This document shows positions 21,001-27,000 of a stretch of 64,000 bases of DNA, in pieces. Position 1 is the stretch's first letter; the number at the start of each line of letters is the position of its first letter. The stretch is from the NCBI RefSeq assembly GCF_056712565.1, contig NZ_CM160072.1, one strand, 5' to 3'. Made by a program: the position numbers.

Positions 21001-24000
21001 TCCTGCCACCTGCCGCGCCTGCTGGCATCACGCTGCTGCGCTGTAGCGTAAACGCTGCCCACAGTCGTGAGCAAATCGATGCCATCATTCAGGCATTTGC
21101 TACTCAGAAGCAGTAATGTGAACCCGCCGTGGTGTTGCGCCACGGCGGGTTTAATGTTGTCTGTCATACCAATACACCAGGCTCAACGCCACCAGCACAA
21201 ACGCTACCGGTAAACCGAGCGCGGTAACAGGTGCGCTCAACGCAAATAGCAATCCCAGATTGACCATGATTTGATAGCTGATCCAGGTGAGTAAACCAAC
21301 GATGACGCCTACAGCGAGACGGCTACCCATCCCTGGCGAGCGCGGGACACTAAAGGTAAACGGCACAGCCAGCAAAATCATCGCCAGAGTCAAGATCGGT
21401 TGCCCCAGTTTTTCCCACAGTGCAAGGTGGTATTCGCTGCTGGGTTGCCCGGTATCCTGCAAATAATGGATGTAATGATTAAGCTGACGGACAGAAAAAG
21501 TATTCCCCGGCATCGATAACTCTTCAAGATTCATACTGGTGAAGGCCGATTGCCAGGCAAGATTATCTAATGTTTCCAGCGTTTCTTTGCCATTCAACCA
21601 TTTTTTATAATTCACACCATGCAGGATCCACGTTTTATCGTCTTCAATGGTGGCACTGCGCGCATAAATGTAGGATTCGAGCGAGAGATCGTCGCGGTAA
21701 TGAAAAATCTCCACGCCCACCGGCTGGCCCTGCTCGTTCAGCGATTTCACCGTCACAAATTCATTACCGCGCCTGGCCCAAAGCATATTGCCGATAATGT
21801 CATTGTCCTCCCCCAACGCGGTGGCAGTCGATTTGATTTGCAGCGCCTGTTGCTGCAATGGTGACGCCACCCACTCATCAATCGCGCCTAACGAAACAGT
21901 CCACAGTATCCCTGCAACCAGCGCCACCAGTGCAATGCGGAAGATAGAAAACCCCGTGCTGCGAATGGCGGTAAGCTCACTGTTTTTCGATAACTGCCCG
22001 AGACCAACAATCCCCCCCAATAACGCGATAAACGGCGAAAGTTCGACCAGTGTGCGCGGTAAGGTCATCAGCACCACCAGCACTGCCTGAGTCCAGCGAT
22101 AACCGCCCGGACTGACATCATCCAGTTCGTTAATCAGGTTGAAGGTGGTAAAAAGCGGCAGCAATAGCCCTGCGGCGGCGGCAAAACCGAGAAAGAGGTG
22201 ACGGATTAAATAGCGACTGAAAACATTCATCGGGGAAATTTCTGCAGCAAGGAGAAGTCGCGTGCGACCAGCATCAACAGGCCCATTAGCATGAGTCCGG
22301 GCACTAACCACAAACCAGGAATGAGGGGAATCGCGCCGTTAGCCACCAGCGTACGACAGACGTCGCCGCCATAAAAAATGGCAACAAACAGCAACGTCAG
22401 TGGCAGTAGCGTTGAAAATCGCCCCTGCCGCGGTTTTACCCGACTTAATGAAATGGCCAGCAGCGCCATCAACAATGCTGTCAGGCCACGGCTTTGTCGC
22501 CATTGCAGTTCGGCATGATCGGCTGGAAAGACGGAGCGTGCCAGCTCCGTGACCGATTTTGCTTTGCGTTTGACGTTAGGGCTTTGATCCAGCGGATTGA
22601 GATGCAATTGCAGATTACGGTAGATCTGTTCGTTGTCGTCACGCCCCTGATGATCGAGAAGATAGGCGGTACCGTTATGCAACATAACGGTCGGTTTCTC
22701 GGGTGATGGGTCAACCACATCAACCGAACGGGCGCGGAAAATGCGGGTTCGATTGGCAGTAGAAGTATAAATCAGCGCGTCAGTCAGGCGATTATTATCC
22801 TGATCAACCGTCTGCGAAAGGATCATTCGTCCGTTATCGTTAGTGTTAAATTTCTTTGCCCGCAACTGACGAACATCCAGCTCCGACTGCGATTGTTGCT
22901 CCAGTTGATAAATCTGCGCATAAGCCCAGGGACGACCATACATCGACAGAAGGGTGACAAAAATACTTAGCGGTATCGCCAGATAAAGGACGGCTTTGTA
23001 CAAACGTCCCGGACTGCCCCCCGCCGCGGAGATAGCGGTAATTTCCGAGTCGGTATACATTTGCCCTAGCGTCACGCCAACTGACGCATACAGTCCAACA
23101 GGTAACAGCATCTCCAGTGCAATCAGCACTTTGTAGAAAACGATATCCAGCACAACATCAAGAGCTAATGTCCCATTTGCCGCTTCGGTCAGATAACGCT
23201 GTGCGGAGTAGCTGGCGAAAATAAAGATCAGAAAACCGACGATAATCAGCACCAGACGGCGCGTACCACGCATGATGTAGTGTTCAACCAGCTTCATCTC
23301 GCTAACGCCCTCAATCCTTTGAATTTTTTATTCATTGATCAGTTTCTGCGCCAGCGCAATGACATGATCTACCTCTTCCGGTGTCAGGCTGCCGTCCTTT
23401 GCCCACTGAATTCGCCCGGCTTTATTCAATACCAGAATGGTTGAACTCTGCTCCGGCAATTGCCAGGCAACGCGTCCCAGACCATTGCCGTCAATAACGA
23501 ATTGCGCCCACGGATAGCGGCGTTTATTTTTTTCGATTTTGCCAACGACAAAATAGCCAGTACCAAAGATGGCATCATCGGTGTTCACAATAGTGGTGGG
23601 CTGAAAACGATCCTGCGAAAAGTTTGCCGCTTCAACCGCTTTAATTAACAGTGAGTTCTTTTTCTTCGCAGACTTACGTCCGGCGATATACTGAATAATG
23701 CGGACTTTTCCCGTCAATTGTGTGCTGTTCCACTTTTGGTAGTGAATTTCGTCGTCGCTATTCAGAAGCAGCTCGCCGCCTTCCTGGATATAAACAGGAG
23801 TAACCGTTTTGCCAGTGACGAAATTGTGTGCCGCCGCGCCTGGCGCTAAGAGTGCGATGATCAGAGCGACAATCCAACGAGATGGCATTATTGCTCCGGA
23901 TAGAGTGGGAAACGCGAAATAAGCAGTTCTAAACGCTGGCGAATATCGCTATCCAGCGCCACCGGTGCATCATATGACCGACGGTTATCCATATCATCCG

Positions 24001-27000
24001 CCACCATGTCGTCGTGCTTATCCCCCATCAGACCATTAATGGCGGCGAGAAAACGGGAAATCAGTAACGCCTCTTTATTTTCAGGATCAAGCGATCTTAA
24101 GGTGTCGTAATAAGAAACCTGCTGGCTGATGATTTTTCGCACATCATGAAATTCCCTGCCAGTTAGTTGCGGTTTAGCAATAATCTCTTTCAGGATGTAC
24201 ATTTGCTTCTGGCGGTAGGCGATAAAACCGTTCACGGTTTCTAACTGGCCATGGCGCAATGAATAGTTCACCAGCCACCAGACAGGGGAGCTCAAATAAA
24301 CACGTAACAGGTTACCGTAAAACGACACAATATTTTTCTTACCGTTACGAAAGCCATCCTGAAAATGCCCAAGAAAAACGGTCGTTTTGCCGAATAAAAA
24401 TCCGGCCTGATGCTTCTTTAAATACAGCCGTTGCGCAAAACGCAGATGCTTGTAGCGCGCTCGCATGTATTTAAACTGTTTGCGCTCGTCTGTCGTCAGC
24501 TCATCGCCTTTCGCCTGTTTGCGGATTAAACGCAGTAACTCCTGACGATTAACACCATCCAGCCAGAATTTCAGGCATAACGCGTAATTATCATGGATGA
24601 TTTCGGTGGTACAACTTAGTGCGATAGTCGGCGGCAAACTGACCTGTGCATCAACAACATCATCTTCTTCAATCGCAACAAATAGACGCTCGCTCGCCTC
24701 AAGCGGGAAATATTTTCTCATCATCAGGATTTCTCTCCGGTTGAGTTATAAAGCAAGGAATGGCGCTGAAAAAATGCCTTTAAGGTCGGAATTAGCGAGA
24801 GCACCACATCCAGACATTGCCCACCGAAGTAAGCAAATGCAGCCCCCAGCACGCCAAACAGATGACAGAACATGAACAGCAATACGATGTAGCCGATTGA
24901 GGCGATGGTTTGCGCCACGAGAAAAGCGCGCTGTTTTCCCGCCATCAATAGCAATGACTCCTGTGGGAAGCCCAGCATCGAAATCACAATTGCGCCCAGC
25001 ATCACCTGAATCAGGTCATACGCTTCGAGATACTTAACGCCAAACACCAGCGAAATGAGCGGCTTGCCGACGATCAACACCGCGAGCGCCACCAGAATAC
25101 CGATTCCGCCCGCCAGTAAACCGGACTTCACGCCTAACAACCACGGTCTGGTGGTGCGTGGATCTAAACGCATCACCTCTGGATAAAAACTTTTGCCCAG
25201 TAAACCCGCTGGCGTTCCGGCGGCATCGAAGAATGTCATGGCGATTTTAAATAACCCGGCGGCAGCGGGTCCTAACACGATCCCCACCAACACTGTGCTG
25301 CACGAGTTACGCGCCGACCAGATGGAGTGGGCAATGTTGGTTGACCAGACAAAACTCCACGCGCCTTTAATGTGTCGGGCAGACTCAAACAGATTCAATT
25401 TGAAGGCGTTATGGATATTTCTGCGGCGTAATTCGCGCGCGGCAAACCACCAGTACATGGTGCCGCCAACCAGATTCGACACGTACCAGGCAATAACAAA
25501 ACCCGCAAAACCAAAGTCAAAATACCAGGCTACGACGCTCCCCGCTGCGCGCAGAAAAGGTTTCGTCGCCTGCTGTACAGCAATCAAATCAAAGCGATCT
25601 ACCGCACGCAGAATGCCGGTCGGCGTGGAGGAAGCCATTGAAGGAATGAGCGTGCAATAGAGCGCCGCCAGCCAAAAGCTTTGGTCATCCAGACCTAATG
25701 AATGGGAAAGGAATGGCAGTAAGGCAATGCCGCCGACAATCGCCACCGCGCCGCTGACGATATCCAGCGAGAAGGAAAATGAGACAACATTGCGAAATTG
25801 CTGCGGATCATTGTTGGTCAAAGCTGGCGTTCCGTACTGAACTACCAGCTGCCATGTCTGAAACTTAATAAAATCGCTGATCGACTTGGCGTACGATTGC
25901 ACAATTACCAGTACGCCAAACATGGCGGGCGTCATCCCTTTACCGGCACACGAGAGCGCCAACAGCCCCAGCAAAGCGCTCACAACATTACTGGAGCCTA
26001 ACCAGGCGCTATTGCGAATAATGGTGCGAAACGCGCCATCTGCAAACCAATGTTTGATGTTAAAAACCGCCAATTCAGCCTGACCTTATCGTTGATAGTA
26101 AAAAGTATCCCGCCAGCCTTAAGTTAAACTTCGGCGGTCAGAAACGATGGCAACCAGAGAAACCGCCTTCTGTGCCTGTTCCAGCACCTCGCTGTAAGGC
26201 GCTCTGGAATCAATCTCAAGAATTTTTGTGCCGTTATAGCCAATCGTCGACATAACACCGATTTTGTCCTGCAGCTCGGCATAGTCATGGTCAGGCTTGC
26301 GGGAGATGGCAGTATCAATATCAATCCCCAAGCGAATGATTAATTCAGGACGGTATTGCGCCATTTTTTGGTATAAACGCCGTTCACGCTGCGCCAGAAA
26401 CCTGCTGATTTTCCCGGTCGCACGTTCGACGCCAATCCCCGGTCCGTCATAATAAAAGCCCGAAATTTCAGCCTGCGGGAAGCGATCGCTGACCACCAGA
26501 ACGCCACTTTGCGCCAGTCGCTGAACCTTGCGCAGATTCGCCATTCTTCGCAGCGAGAAGCAGTACATAATCACCGCCGCCCATAGCGCCGGAGATTTGG
26601 TTTTCATGCTTTGGGTTTTCGAGGATTTGGCCGCCAGTCGCCGTTCGAGCCAGACACCAACCAACGGCAATCGTTTGATTTTGTCGCCGTCTTCGCCGGA
26701 GAGCAGCCCCAGATAGCGCCGCTCGGTTTGCCAGTGTTGTTGCAGCGATTTCACCAGGTCATTTGTCAGTGTGGATTTACCGGTGCCATCACACCCGACC
26801 ACCGCAATCAGCCCCGGAATGTAGTTGGGCTGCGGCGCGGTTGTACTCTTAACAGTTTGTGTTTGTAGTGCATCCATTCGTTTAATCATCCCCTATCCAT
26901 TTTGGTGATCAGGAAAGCGCGGCGTGAATTGCGCGTAGTGACGCTTGCAGAATTTCATCGGCTGGTTGCCGACCATCCAGTTCAAGGATCCTGGCGCCAT

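What the first reader, a model, noticed from the sequence alone, without database searches (positions are those of the whole stretch)
21151..26073. Export-type operon facing the biosynthetic genes: MOP flippase, hypothetical, YtfJ-like periplasmic protein, LptF/LptG-like permease pair without an ATPase
Five minus-strand genes are chained by overlapping stop/start codons (24724, 23888, 22230). They combine a Wzx-like flippase (YghQ) with paralogs of the LPS-extraction permeases LptF and LptG and a signal-peptide protein. The essential lptFG genes are encoded elsewhere with lptB, so this second YjgP/YjgQ pair is an accessory duplicate. No ABC ATPase gene is present in the operon, implying either sharing of LptB or a non-canonical energy source. 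Convergent placement against the biosynthetic operon with a shared hairpin (21122-21150) suggests a dedicated envelope trafficking route for the locus product.
Basis: partly seen in the sequence, partly recalled or inferred. Interest (0 to 1): 0.75.

Follow-up and report, generated by a model that had tools for sequence, protein, structure and literature searches.

The report
Second LptF/LptG pair for sphingolipid export
Most E. coli strains (not K-12) carry, inside their ceramide-synthesis locus, a second divergent copy of the LPS-extractor membrane subunits LptF/LptG with no ATPase of its own; this probably exports the locus's sphingolipid by borrowing LptB, as a 2026 preprint showed for Caulobacter.

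Summary
Five minus-strand genes lie at the stated coordinates, with overlapping stop/start codons at 22227-30, 23888 and 24724. A strong hairpin (21122-21150) is shared with the convergent spt operon, and no ABC ATPase is encoded anywhere in the 64 kb.

The window is the E. coli glcC-pitB region, the sphingolipid locus (yghO, aasR-epi-acpR-spt). LptF2 and LptG2 score above NCBI's LptF/LptG cut-offs but are only 28-29% identical to housekeeping LptF/LptG. The housekeeping pair is present in 5425 of 5426 complete genomes; the 13-kb locus is present in 4050.

In all 41 of 41 related genomes with enough flank, the pair lies within 8.7 kb of spt, although gene order is shuffled. The LptB-docking glutamates are invariant. 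The LPS-phosphate ligands K34/K40/K41 of LptG are replaced by N/D, D/E and D.

Uchendu et al. (bioRxiv, April 2026) showed that Caulobacter LptF2/G2 bind LptB, and they drew the E. coli UTI89 locus.

New here:
- The operon probably starts at yghS (seven genes).
- The "hypothetical" has a CHAD-like fold. It travels with the YghR/S/T kinase-fold paralogues and YghQ in other sphingolipid producers.
- LptF2 has a small residue at the LptC-bypass position R212.

The parts
21122..21150 (.). GC-rich hairpin between the convergent spt and lptG2 genes; likely a bidirectional terminator
   Evidence: The sequence is read. The terminator scan finds it. RNA folding gives -24.3 kcal/mol, z = -6.1.
21151..22230 (-). 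lptG2: second LptG-family permease (359 aa)
   Evidence: TIGR04408 scores 298.8 bits, above the cut-off of 240. It is 28% identical to K-12 LptG over 350 aa. E85, equivalent to LptG E88, is invariant. K34/K40/K41 are replaced by N/D, D/E and D in 55 orthologues. dN/dS is 0.05.
22227..23297 (-). lptF2: second LptF-family permease (356 aa); its stop codon overlaps the lptG2 start (ATGA)
   Evidence: TIGR04407 scores 317.7 bits, above the cut-off of 230. It is 29% identical to K-12 LptF. E85, equivalent to LptF E84, is invariant. R33 and K317 are kept. R212 is replaced by A/S/G/T. Orthologues at 49-97% identity occur in 58 loci.
23328..23888 (-). ytfJ paralogue: YtfJ-family periplasmic protein (186 aa) with a Sec-type signal peptide and no cysteine
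   Evidence: TIGR01626 scores 213.9 bits, above the cut-off of 151. It is 55% identical to K-12 YtfJ. The signal peptide MPSRWIVALIIALLAPGAAA/HNF is read. No relative with a solved structure was found.
23888..24724 (-). 278-aa all-helical protein with a CHAD-like fold; translationally coupled to yghQ upstream and to the ytfJ paralogue downstream
24724..26073 (-). yghQ: MOP-superfamily (Wzx-like) membrane protein, 449 aa, full length here but truncated by IS5 in K-12
   Evidence: Pfam Polysacc_synt hits at 6.8e-9. NCBIfam gives only a weak MOP flippase hit. K-12 keeps only 79% of the protein. A Sphingomonas homologue at 47% identity lies next to the CHAD-like gene.
26119..26889 (-). yghR: P-loop protein of the thymidylate-kinase superfamily; probably in the same operon
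   Evidence: NCBIfam and Pfam give only weak dTMP-kinase and P-loop hits. The gap to yghQ is 45 nt.
26909..27622 (-). yghS: paralogue of yghR and probable first gene of the operon
   Evidence: The AF2 model has pLDDT 81. The best solved folds are thymidylate kinases at TM about 0.55. The profile search of PDB agrees. A promoter-like site lies at 27700-27672.
27797..28489 (+). yghT: third paralogue, transcribed divergently from yghS
   Evidence: It is conserved next to yghS in most Enterobacterales loci.
19944..21116 (+). spt: serine palmitoyltransferase, last gene of the convergent biosynthetic operon
   Evidence: NF047599 scores 599.5 bits, above the cut-off of 500. The E. coli B enzyme was characterised biochemically in PMC9386255.
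17062..19944 (+). aasR (17062-18753), epi/cerR (18750-19664) and acpR (19696-19944): acyl-ACP synthetase, reductase and dedicated ACP for ceramide synthesis
   Evidence: NCBIfam identifies a fatty acyl-AMP ligase at 862 bits, an SDR and an ACP. Gene roles are taken from PMC9386255.
15516..16658 (-). yghO: the N-acyltransferase (aca/cerS) of the ceramide pathway
   Evidence: The annotation is. The assignment as aca is from PMC9386255, Fig. 9 legend. It is conserved in the loci.

Best explanation
The five genes are the distal part of a probable seven-gene operon: yghS-yghR-yghQ-(CHAD-like)-(ytfJ paralogue)-lptF2-lptG2. Together with yghT, yghO and the convergent aasR-epi-acpR-spt operon, it forms the E. 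coli sphingolipid locus.

LptF2 and LptG2 are the membrane half of a second LptB2FG-type lipid extractor. They have no ATPase of their own. They most likely dock two copies of the housekeeping LptB through conserved coupling helices. They would then pull the locus's sphingolipid, not LPS, out of the periplasmic leaflet of the inner membrane. From there the lipid would pass onto the Lpt bridge through the periplasmic beta-jellyroll domains, possibly without LptC.

Upstream steps are inferred:
- YghQ (MOP/Wzx-like) flips the lipid across the inner membrane.
- The three thymidylate-kinase-fold paralogues and the CHAD-like protein build or handle a phosphorylated head group.
- The periplasmic YtfJ paralogue has an unknown accessory role.

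Shown here: gene content, family membership, paralogy, strict linkage with spt, conserved LptB-contact residues, an altered substrate pocket, and purifying selection.

Shown elsewhere, in Caulobacter only: the F2-G2 complex, LptB binding, and lethality of deletion only when anionic sphingolipid is made.

Inferred: everything about the E. coli substrate, the energy coupling and the roles of the accessory genes.
For: Family membership is above curated cut-offs.

The pair is a second copy beside the universal canonical lptFG.

spt lies within 8.7 kb of the pair in 41 of 41 loci, despite at least four different gene orders. The sub-blocks stay constant: lptF2-lptG2; yghQ-CHAD-like-ytfJ; yghT<>yghS-yghR; aasR-epi-acpR-spt.

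The coupling-helix glutamates are invariant in 55-56 orthologues, and Tyr7 of LptF2 (equivalent to LptF Y6) in the 12-sequence LptF2 alignment. Their LptB-contact role is from PMC5548808.

The LPS 1'/4'-phosphate and core ligands of LptG are changed: K34 to N/D/T, K40 to D/E, K41 to D, and R133 to L/Q/I. R33 and K317 of LptF, and K62 and R136 of LptG, are kept. The roles of these residues, and the lethality of K34E, are from PMC6744409.

dN/dS is 0.04-0.13 for all 13 genes.

There is no ABC ATPase in the window.

In Caulobacter, LptF2/G2 co-purify with each other and with LptB, and can be deleted only in delta-spt or delta-cpgB backgrounds. The E. coli UTI89 locus is shown in that preprint as homologous.

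LptF2 has A/S/G/T at the position where LptF R212G/S/C bypasses LptC (PMC9972910). This fits the absence of an lptC2 gene.
Against: No experiment exists for the E. coli proteins.

I did not find in the library any report of a native E. coli sphingolipid. The searches were not exhaustive.

The locus decays repeatedly in E. coli. K-12 has an IS5 deletion. Truncated and fused gene products are common. About 25% of complete genomes lack most of the locus. aasR is annotated as a pseudogene in ATCC 11775.

The gammaproteobacterial pair may not be orthologous to the Caulobacter pair. Published identity between Caulobacter and Azotobacter is only 24%, no higher than the 28-29% between the E. coli pair and canonical LptF/G. 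Transfer of function therefore rests on context, not on close homology.

Another of E. coli's many ABC ATPases could be the partner instead of LptB.
Confidence: 0.7

Rival explanations
1. LptF2/G2 are a spare or specialised LPS extractor, for example for a modified lipid A or a stress condition. Their position next to spt would then be incidental.
For: They score as LptF/LptG 'equivalogs' and are annotated as such. Four of the eight cationic LPS-contact residues are retained.
Against: K34, K40 and K41 of LptG are acidic or neutral in all 55 orthologues, and K34E is lethal in the canonical protein. Linkage to spt holds in 41 of 41 loci across two orders, with shuffled gene order. The pair is lost together with the spt genes in K-12 without harm.
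Confidence: 0.07
2. The pair is energised by something other than LptB. Candidates are the neighbouring P-loop proteins YghR/S/T, another orphan ABC ATPase, or no ATPase at all.
For: Three P-loop genes sit in or beside the operon and co-occur with it in most Enterobacterales. E. coli has many ABC ATPases (general knowledge).
Against: YghR/S/T have no ABC signature motif and fold like thymidylate/NMP kinases. Pseudomonadaceae and Azotobacter loci keep lptF2G2 without them. The coupling-helix residues that dock into LptB are conserved. LptB binding was demonstrated in Caulobacter.
Confidence: 0.08
3. In E. coli the locus is a silent or decaying relic, and the permeases currently do nothing.
For: There is an IS5 deletion in K-12, an aasR pseudogene in ATCC 11775, many truncated or fused variants, and absence from about a quarter of genomes. 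No native E. coli sphingolipid report was found.
Against: dN/dS is 0.04-0.13 for every gene between the window and other Escherichia lineages. The complete locus is kept in 4050 of 5426 genomes. The E. coli B SPT, AcpR and AasR are active enzymes (PMC9386255).
Confidence: 0.12

Closest known systems
Caulobacter crescentus LptF2/LptG2 (CCNA_01214/01213), with LptC2; Uchendu, Isom & Klein, bioRxiv 10.64898/2026.04.12.717747; proposed earlier in PMC11324152
   Same: Both are a second LptF/LptG pair encoded inside the sphingolipid locus, with no lptB copy. A MOP-type putative flippase lies in the same locus (CC_1166 there, YghQ here). The preprint draws the E. coli UTI89 locus as homologous.
   Different: E. 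coli has no lptC2. Its head-group genes differ: there are no ceramide kinase or CPG genes, and instead there are YghR/S/T, the CHAD-like protein and a YtfJ paralogue. Sequence relatedness is low and orthology is untested; published identity between Caulobacter and Azotobacter is 24%. No E. coli experiments exist.
Canonical LptB2FG(C) LPS extractor of E. coli
   Same: Both belong to the same protein family above equivalog cut-offs and have the same length and architecture. The coupling-helix Glu and the TM1 Tyr that contacts LptB are conserved. R33 and K317 of LptF, and K62 and R136 of LptG, are conserved.
   Different: Identity is only 28-29%. The pair is non-essential and accessory. The K34/K40/K41/R133 cluster of LptG has its charge reversed or neutralised. 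LptF R212 is replaced by a small residue. The pair is encoded away from the canonical lptFG locus (beside pepA) and, by general knowledge, from lptB.
Azotobacter vinelandii / Pseudomonas luteola sphingolipid loci (PMC11324152, Fig. 7 and S2 tables)
   Same: They belong to the same clade of LptF2/G2, at 49-55% identity to E. coli (L043, L045, L047-L050). They have the same five ceramide genes.
   Different: Those loci carry ceramide-kinase-like and CDP-alcohol-transferase-like head-group genes after lptG2. They lack YghQ, the CHAD-like gene and the YtfJ paralogue.
Sulfolobus PPK3 operon: two thymidylate-kinase-like paralogues plus a CHAD protein plus PPX (PMC12995831)
   Same: Both have tandem thymidylate-kinase-superfamily paralogues encoded in one operon with a CHAD-fold protein (yghS-yghR ... 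CHAD-like).
   Different: There is no specific sequence affinity to the PPK3 structure (E = 0.013). There are no PPX or SixA genes. Here the genes are tied to a membrane flippase and a lipid locus. No polyphosphate link has been tested.

Membership tests
LptF / LptG permeases (YjgP/YjgQ, PF03739; TIGR04407, TIGR04408) | Whole-protein HMM score above the curated equivalog cut-off, with full-length colinearity | tested here: met
   LptF2 scores 317.7 bits against a cut-off of 230, covering 4-345 of 356. LptG2 scores 298.8 bits against 240, covering 4-354 of 359.
LptF / LptG permeases (YjgP/YjgQ, PF03739; TIGR04407, TIGR04408) | Coupling-helix glutamate (LptF E84, LptG E88) and TM1 Tyr that dock into LptB | tested here: met
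   E85 is invariant in 56 LptF2 and 55 LptG2 sequences. Y7 of LptF2 is invariant. The roles of these residues are from PMC5548808.
LptF / LptG permeases (YjgP/YjgQ, PF03739; TIGR04407, TIGR04408) | Cationic residues that bind the lipid A phosphates and inner core (LptG K34, K40, K41, K62, R133, R136; LptF R33, K317) | tested here: not met
   K34 is N/D/T, K40 is D/E, K41 is D, and R133 is L/Q/I in all orthologues. K62, R136, R33 and K317 are kept. The roles of these residues are from PMC6744409. The proteins are therefore family members by sequence but probably not LPS-specific.
LptF / LptG permeases (YjgP/YjgQ, PF03739; TIGR04407, TIGR04408) | Physical complex with LptB2 and ATP-driven lipid extraction | not testable with these tools
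   This needs co-purification and reconstitution. It has been shown only for the Caulobacter counterparts.
Sphingolipid-locus LptF2/LptG2 (Caulobacter type) | Encoded with the spt/ceramide genes as a second copy beside canonical lptFG, with no lptB in the locus | tested here: met
   All 41 of 41 full-flank loci carry spt. Canonical lptFG is in 5425 of 5426 genomes. No ABC ATPase is in the window.
Sphingolipid-locus LptF2/LptG2 (Caulobacter type) | Common descent with CCNA_01214/01213, separate from canonical LptF/G | not tested
   The Caulobacter sequences could not be fetched. Searches were saturated by gammaproteobacterial hits. Published BLAST of Caulobacter against Azotobacter gives 24% identity, E of 1e-6 and 9e-13.
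Sphingolipid-locus LptF2/LptG2 (Caulobacter type) | Deletion tolerated only when sphingolipid synthesis is off | not testable with these tools
   This is a genetic experiment.
MOP flippases (Wzx-like; Pfam PF01943/PF13440) | Significant match to the Polysacc_synt profile over the membrane domain | tested here: met
   PF01943 hits at 6.8e-9 (residues 19-280) and PF13440 at 1.4e-7. No NCBIfam equivalog cut-off is reached: 34.7 bits against 273. YghQ therefore belongs to the superfamily only, and flipping activity is inferred.
YtfJ family (TIGR01626 / PF09695) | HMM score above the cut-off, plus a signal peptide | tested here: met
   It scores 213.9 bits against a cut-off of 151.1. It is 55% identical to K-12 YtfJ. 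The N-terminal hydrophobic segment ending in AAA is read. The family has no known function.
CHAD domain (PF05235) | Sequence match to the CHAD profile, or to a bona fide CHAD protein | tested here: not met
   Neither the E. coli protein nor its Sphingomonas homologue has a Pfam hit. hhalign against E. coli YgiF gives probability 0.3.
CHAD domain (PF05235) | Fold made of two four-helix bundles, with conserved His and basic residues | tested here: met
ABC-transporter ATPase (as a possible role for YghR/S/T) | Walker A plus the LSGGQ signature, with an ABC_tran profile match | tested here: not met
   Only a Walker A motif is present. Pfam shows no ABC_tran hit. The fold is that of thymidylate/adenylate kinases.
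PPK3 polyphosphate kinases (as a possible role for YghR/S/T) | Specific relatedness to cPPK3/rPPK3, and an operon with CHAD and polyP genes | tested here: inconclusive
   The operon logic is similar: tandem dTMPK-like paralogues plus a CHAD-like gene. The S. tokodaii PPK3-type structure scores no better than ordinary thymidylate kinases: E = 0.013 and Foldseek rank 9.

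The most novel reading that the evidence does not exclude
The upstream half of the operon is a conserved module of sphingolipid-producing proteobacteria that has not been described. It comprises three thymidylate-kinase-superfamily paralogues (YghR/S/T), a CHAD-like protein, the MOP protein YghQ and a YtfJ paralogue. 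By analogy with archaeal PPK3 (dTMPK-like paralogues plus CHAD), it would use phosphoanhydride or polyphosphate chemistry. Its product would be a (poly)phosphorylated sphingolipid head group different from Caulobacter's CPG2, which it would also flip across the inner membrane. The gammaproteobacterial LptF2/G2 would be an independently recruited, LptC-independent extractor adapted to that lipid, with a charge-reversed LptG TM1 cluster and a small residue at LptF R212.
Probability: 0.2. Interest if true: 0.7.

Novelty: new member of a known kind. Interest (0 to 1): 0.45.

Why it matters
How bacterial sphingolipids reach the outer membrane was unknown until a 2026 preprint implicated LptF2/G2 plus a shared LptB in Caulobacter.

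E. coli is the organism in which the Lpt machine is best understood, genetically, biochemically and structurally. About three quarters of its sequenced strains natively carry such a second extractor, although K-12 does not.

Several questions therefore become directly testable with existing E. coli reagents:
- How does one ATPase serve two transmembrane pairs?
- How do two lipids share or compete for one LptC/A/D/E bridge?
- Which pocket residues set lipid specificity?

It also matters for drugs that target Lpt. And it raises the question of whether pathogenic and commensal E. coli display a sphingolipid to the host.

Tried and rejected
1. YghR/S/T as the missing ATPase. Rejected: they have no ABC signature and an NMP-kinase fold.

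2. The 278-aa protein as Caulobacter CC_1167. Rejected: CC_1167 is a CDP-glycerol glycerophosphotransferase-type protein.

3. Sequence-level proof that the 278-aa protein is a CHAD domain. This failed, so only the fold supports it.

4. Fetching alphaproteobacterial LptF2/G2 for a phylogeny. Searches with E. coli LptF2 and Azotobacter LptG2 returned only gammaproteobacterial relatives among the 120 listed. Orthology with Caulobacter is therefore left open.

5. Apparent absence of spt in 11 of 58 loci. In nine of the 11 the locus or contig ends on the side where relatives carry spt (L018 keeps a partial spt, 69% coverage, at a contig end), and L058 is only a 241-base contig. Only L055 (Azomonas, 7.4 kb upstream available) stays unexplained.

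6. Apparent absence of yghQ and the CHAD-like gene in L024, L027 and L051. This is probably also truncation: the ytfJ paralogue is cut by the locus end in L027 and L051, while in L024 spt ends about 175 bases before the locus end.

7. Rfam scan of 14000-31000. It found nothing.

8. A PDB sequence search for the YtfJ paralogue. It found nothing.

9. Literature on YtfJ function. There is none.

10. The ORF extension of lptG2 to GTG 22311. Rejected in favour of ATG 22230, which matches the annotation, the ATGA overlap and the alignment to LptG.

Full report
**What the window is.** The segment 21000-26200 is 100% identical to several E. coli chromosomes, including ATCC 11775. The wider region is the glcDEFGB/glcC ... 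pitB-gss-hyb neighbourhood. Over 29 kb the window differs from ATCC 11775 at three bases. On the plus strand lie aasR (fatty acyl-AMP ligase), an SDR reductase, a small ACP and spt. The spt product scores 599.5 bits on the NCBIfam serine palmitoyltransferase model, above the cut-off of 500. yghO lies upstream on the minus strand. These five genes are the E. coli B/BL21 ceramide genes studied biochemically in PMC9386255.

**Checking the observation.** The five minus-strand ORFs are real and sit at the stated coordinates.
- The overlaps are ATGA at 22227-22230, TAATG at 23888 and TGATG at 24724.
- The hairpin at 21122-21150 is a 12-bp GC-rich stem with a free energy of -24.3 kcal/mol and z = -6.1.
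- Family calls hold. LptG scores 298.8 bits (cut-off 240), LptF 317.7 (cut-off 230) and YtfJ 213.9 (cut-off 151). YghQ hits Polysacc_synt at 6.8e-9.
- No ORF in the 64 kb has both a Walker A motif and an ABC signature.

There are two corrections. First, lptG2 starts at ATG 22230, not at the upstream GTG. Second, yghR and yghS lie just upstream on the same strand, with gaps of 45 and 19 nt. The only promoter-like site ahead of the block is at 27700-27672. The unit is therefore probably seven genes, with yghT divergent.

**Is it a second copy?** Yes.
- K-12 lptF and lptG, beside pepA, were fetched. That canonical segment is in 5425 of 5426 complete E. coli genomes.
- The five-gene segment is in 4633 genomes, at 80% coverage or more in 4090. 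The whole 13-kb locus is in 4050.
- LptF2 is 29% identical to LptF and LptG2 is 28% identical to LptG. Solved LptF/G chains from Pseudomonas and Vibrio score as well as, or better than, the enterobacterial ones. These are old paralogues, not recent duplicates.
- K-12 lacks them because an IS5 (insH9) replaces everything from aasR to the 3' end of yghQ.

**Co-occurrence with the biosynthetic genes.** A scan of one genome per species returned 58 loci in Enterobacterales and in Pseudomonas, Azotobacter, Azomonas and Stutzerimonas. I ran tblastn with all 13 locus proteins against them.
- spt, acpR, epi and aasR accompany lptF2-lptG2 in every locus with at least 9.5 kb on both sides. That is 41 of 41, at distances of 1.1-8.7 kb.
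- In nine of the 11 loci without a full spt hit, the locus or contig ends on the side where relatives carry spt; L058 is only a 241-base contig. L055 remains unexplained.
- Gene order differs between genera in at least four arrangements, but four sub-blocks never break up: lptF2-lptG2; yghQ, the CHAD-like gene and the ytfJ paralogue; yghT<>yghS-yghR; and aasR-epi-acpR-spt. Linkage that survives rearrangement argues for functional coupling.
- All 13 genes show dN/dS of 0.04-0.13 against other Escherichia lineages.

**What the permease sequences say about mechanism.** I aligned 55-56 orthologues with K-12 LptF and LptG.
- The coupling-helix glutamates that sit in the LptB groove (E84 and E88; PMC5548808) are invariant. 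So is the TM1 tyrosine of LptF that touches LptB.
- Tang et al. (PMC6744409) list the residues that bind LPS in the cavity. Of these, LptF R33 and K317 and LptG K62 and R136 are kept.
- LptG K34, K40, K41 and R133 are replaced by N/D/T, D/E, D and L/Q/I in every orthologue.
- K34E is lethal in canonical LptG, so this pocket is unlikely to take LPS.
- LptF R212 is the residue whose change to G, S or C lets E. coli live without LptC (PMC9972910). It aligns with A, S, G or T in all 56 LptF2 sequences, within a conserved G-T-x-[F/Y] motif. The independent HMMER alignment to Pseudomonas LptF gives the same register.
- This fits the absence of an lptC2 gene and suggests direct hand-over to LptA. That is inference only.

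**Comparison with the literature.** PMC11324152 (2024) proposed that the Caulobacter genes CC_1168, CC_1156 and CC_1155 (LptC2, LptF2, LptG2) and the MOP protein CC_1166 export phosphosphingolipids. Uchendu, Isom and Klein (bioRxiv 10.64898/2026.04.12.717747, April 2026) then reported four things:
- The three genes can be deleted only if spt or the ceramide kinase is absent.
- LptF2 and LptG2 co-purify with each other.
- Both bind the single LptB.
- lptF2/lptG2 occur in many sphingolipid loci of alpha- and gammaproteobacteria. Their Fig. 2B draws E. coli UTI89.

One caveat applies. Published BLAST of the Caulobacter pair against the Azotobacter pair gives only 24% identity. The Azotobacter pair is 49-52% identical to the E. 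coli pair. That is no closer than the E. coli pair is to canonical LptF/G. Whether the alpha and gamma pairs share one origin is open, and I could not fetch alphaproteobacterial sequences to test it.

**The other three genes.**
- The YtfJ paralogue is 55% identical to housekeeping YtfJ, has a signal peptide and contains no cysteine. The family has no known function.
- Foldseek finds 26-42% identical proteins named 'CHAD domain-containing' in Sphingomonas, Zymomonas, Acetobacter, Gluconobacter, Komagataeibacter, Commensalibacter and Pseudomonas veronii. Several of these genera (Sphingomonas, Zymomonas, Gluconobacter) are named in PMC9386255 as carrying the rhodobacterial spt genes.
- Sequence tests for CHAD membership fail, so I call the protein CHAD-like. 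CHAD domains bind polyphosphate (bioRxiv 10.1101/567040).
- The family is small: 341 cluster representatives among 1.84 billion.
- In a Sphingomonas contig the gene follows two YghR/S-like genes and a YghQ homologue at 47% identity. In Commensalibacter it follows a divergent YghT/YghS-like pair and a PAP2 phosphatase.
- YghS models as a thymidylate/NMP-kinase fold with an insert.

YghR/S/T, YghQ and the CHAD-like protein therefore form a conserved module separate from lptF2G2. Pseudomonadaceae and Azotobacter lack this module. After lptG2 they carry ceramide-kinase-like and CDP-alcohol-transferase-like genes instead.

The recently described archaeal PPK3 is two thymidylate-kinase-like paralogues encoded in the same operon as a CHAD protein (PMC12995831). 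That is a suggestive analogy, but there is no specific sequence affinity.

**Verdict.** The kind of system is already known from Caulobacter, and the E. coli example has been noted in a figure.

The points beyond the literature I could search are:
- the seven-gene operon boundary;
- the 41 of 41 linkage statistic and the shuffled but unbroken sub-blocks;
- the charge-reversed LptG pocket;
- the small residue at the LptC-bypass position;
- the CHAD-like fold of the hypothetical protein;
- the conserved YghRST/YghQ/CHAD-like module.

Confidence that LptF2/G2 are an LptB-powered extractor for the locus's sphingolipid is 0.7.

Noticed in passing
L003 (K-12 MG1655 3126000-3137000), compared with window 16600-25000: In K-12 an IS5 element (insH9) sits between yghO and yghQ. 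It replaces aasR, epi, acpR, spt, lptG2, lptF2, the ytfJ paralogue, the CHAD-like gene and the last ~21% of yghQ. K-12 yghQ is therefore a truncated remnant.
   Followed up: yes
window 17366 (in aasR, 17062-18753): The window differs from ATCC 11775 at only three bases in 29 kb, and one of them lies in aasR. aasR is open here (563 aa, no stop) but is annotated as a pseudogene with an internal stop in ATCC 11775. That type strain may be unable to start ceramide synthesis.
   Followed up: partly
proteins P0005-P0008, P0014-P0020, P0100, P0106: E. coli databases hold many broken or fused versions of LptF2. Some are 553-aa YtfJ-LptF2 read-through fusions; the 30-nt spacer is in frame. Others are LptF2-PitB fusions (450-467 aa), AasR-LptF2 fusions (556 aa), and 238-243-aa truncations, including one from Shigella boydii and one cluster with 471 members. 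The locus has been deleted or inactivated repeatedly and independently.
   Followed up: no
L062 7013-10870 (Sphingomonas sp. BIUV-7); L064 2292-5514 (Commensalibacter): Distant relatives keep the block of YghS-like, YghR-like, YghQ-like and CHAD-like genes (Sphingomonas). In Commensalibacter the block is YghT-like<>YghS-like, PAP2 phosphatase, CHAD-like. This module looks specific to sphingolipid-producing lineages and resembles the archaeal PPK3 operon (dTMPK-like paralogues plus CHAD).
   Followed up: partly
window 22665-22667 (codon for LptF2 A211): LptF2 has A/S/G/T in all 56 orthologues where canonical LptF has R212. Substitutions of R212 to G, S or C bypass the need for LptC.
   Followed up: partly
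L045 8245-15345 (Azotobacter vinelandii); the same layout occurs in L043, L047, L049, L050 and L055: Pseudomonadaceae and Azotobacter versions of the locus have nucleotidyltransferase genes before lptF2. After lptG2 they carry CDP-alcohol-phosphatidyltransferase-like, diacylglycerol/ceramide-kinase-like and a further gene. They have no YghQ, CHAD-like or YtfJ paralogue. The same extractor clade is therefore paired with two different head-group toolkits.
   Followed up: partly
L055 1-7409 (Azomonas macrocytogenes): This is the only locus with substantial upstream flank (7.4 kb) in which no spt, yghO or aasR was found next to lptF2-lptG2. The stretch 4543-7410 has no ORF of 200 aa or more.
   Followed up: no
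L029 (record titled Martelella alba BGMRC 2031); L058 (241-base contig titled Falsirhodobacter sp.): Two records attributed to alphaproteobacteria carry Enterobacterales-type sequence. L029 has the complete locus at 61-78% protein identity. L058 is a fragment whose translation is 97% identical to E. coli LptF2. Misassigned taxonomy or contamination seems more likely than gene transfer.
   Followed up: no
window 23328-23888, compared with L066 4709-5263 (K-12 ytfJ): The locus duplicates a third housekeeping envelope protein besides LptF and LptG. This is YtfJ, at 55% identity, and its function is unknown. The pairing hints that housekeeping YtfJ might itself have a role in envelope lipid handling.
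   Followed up: partly
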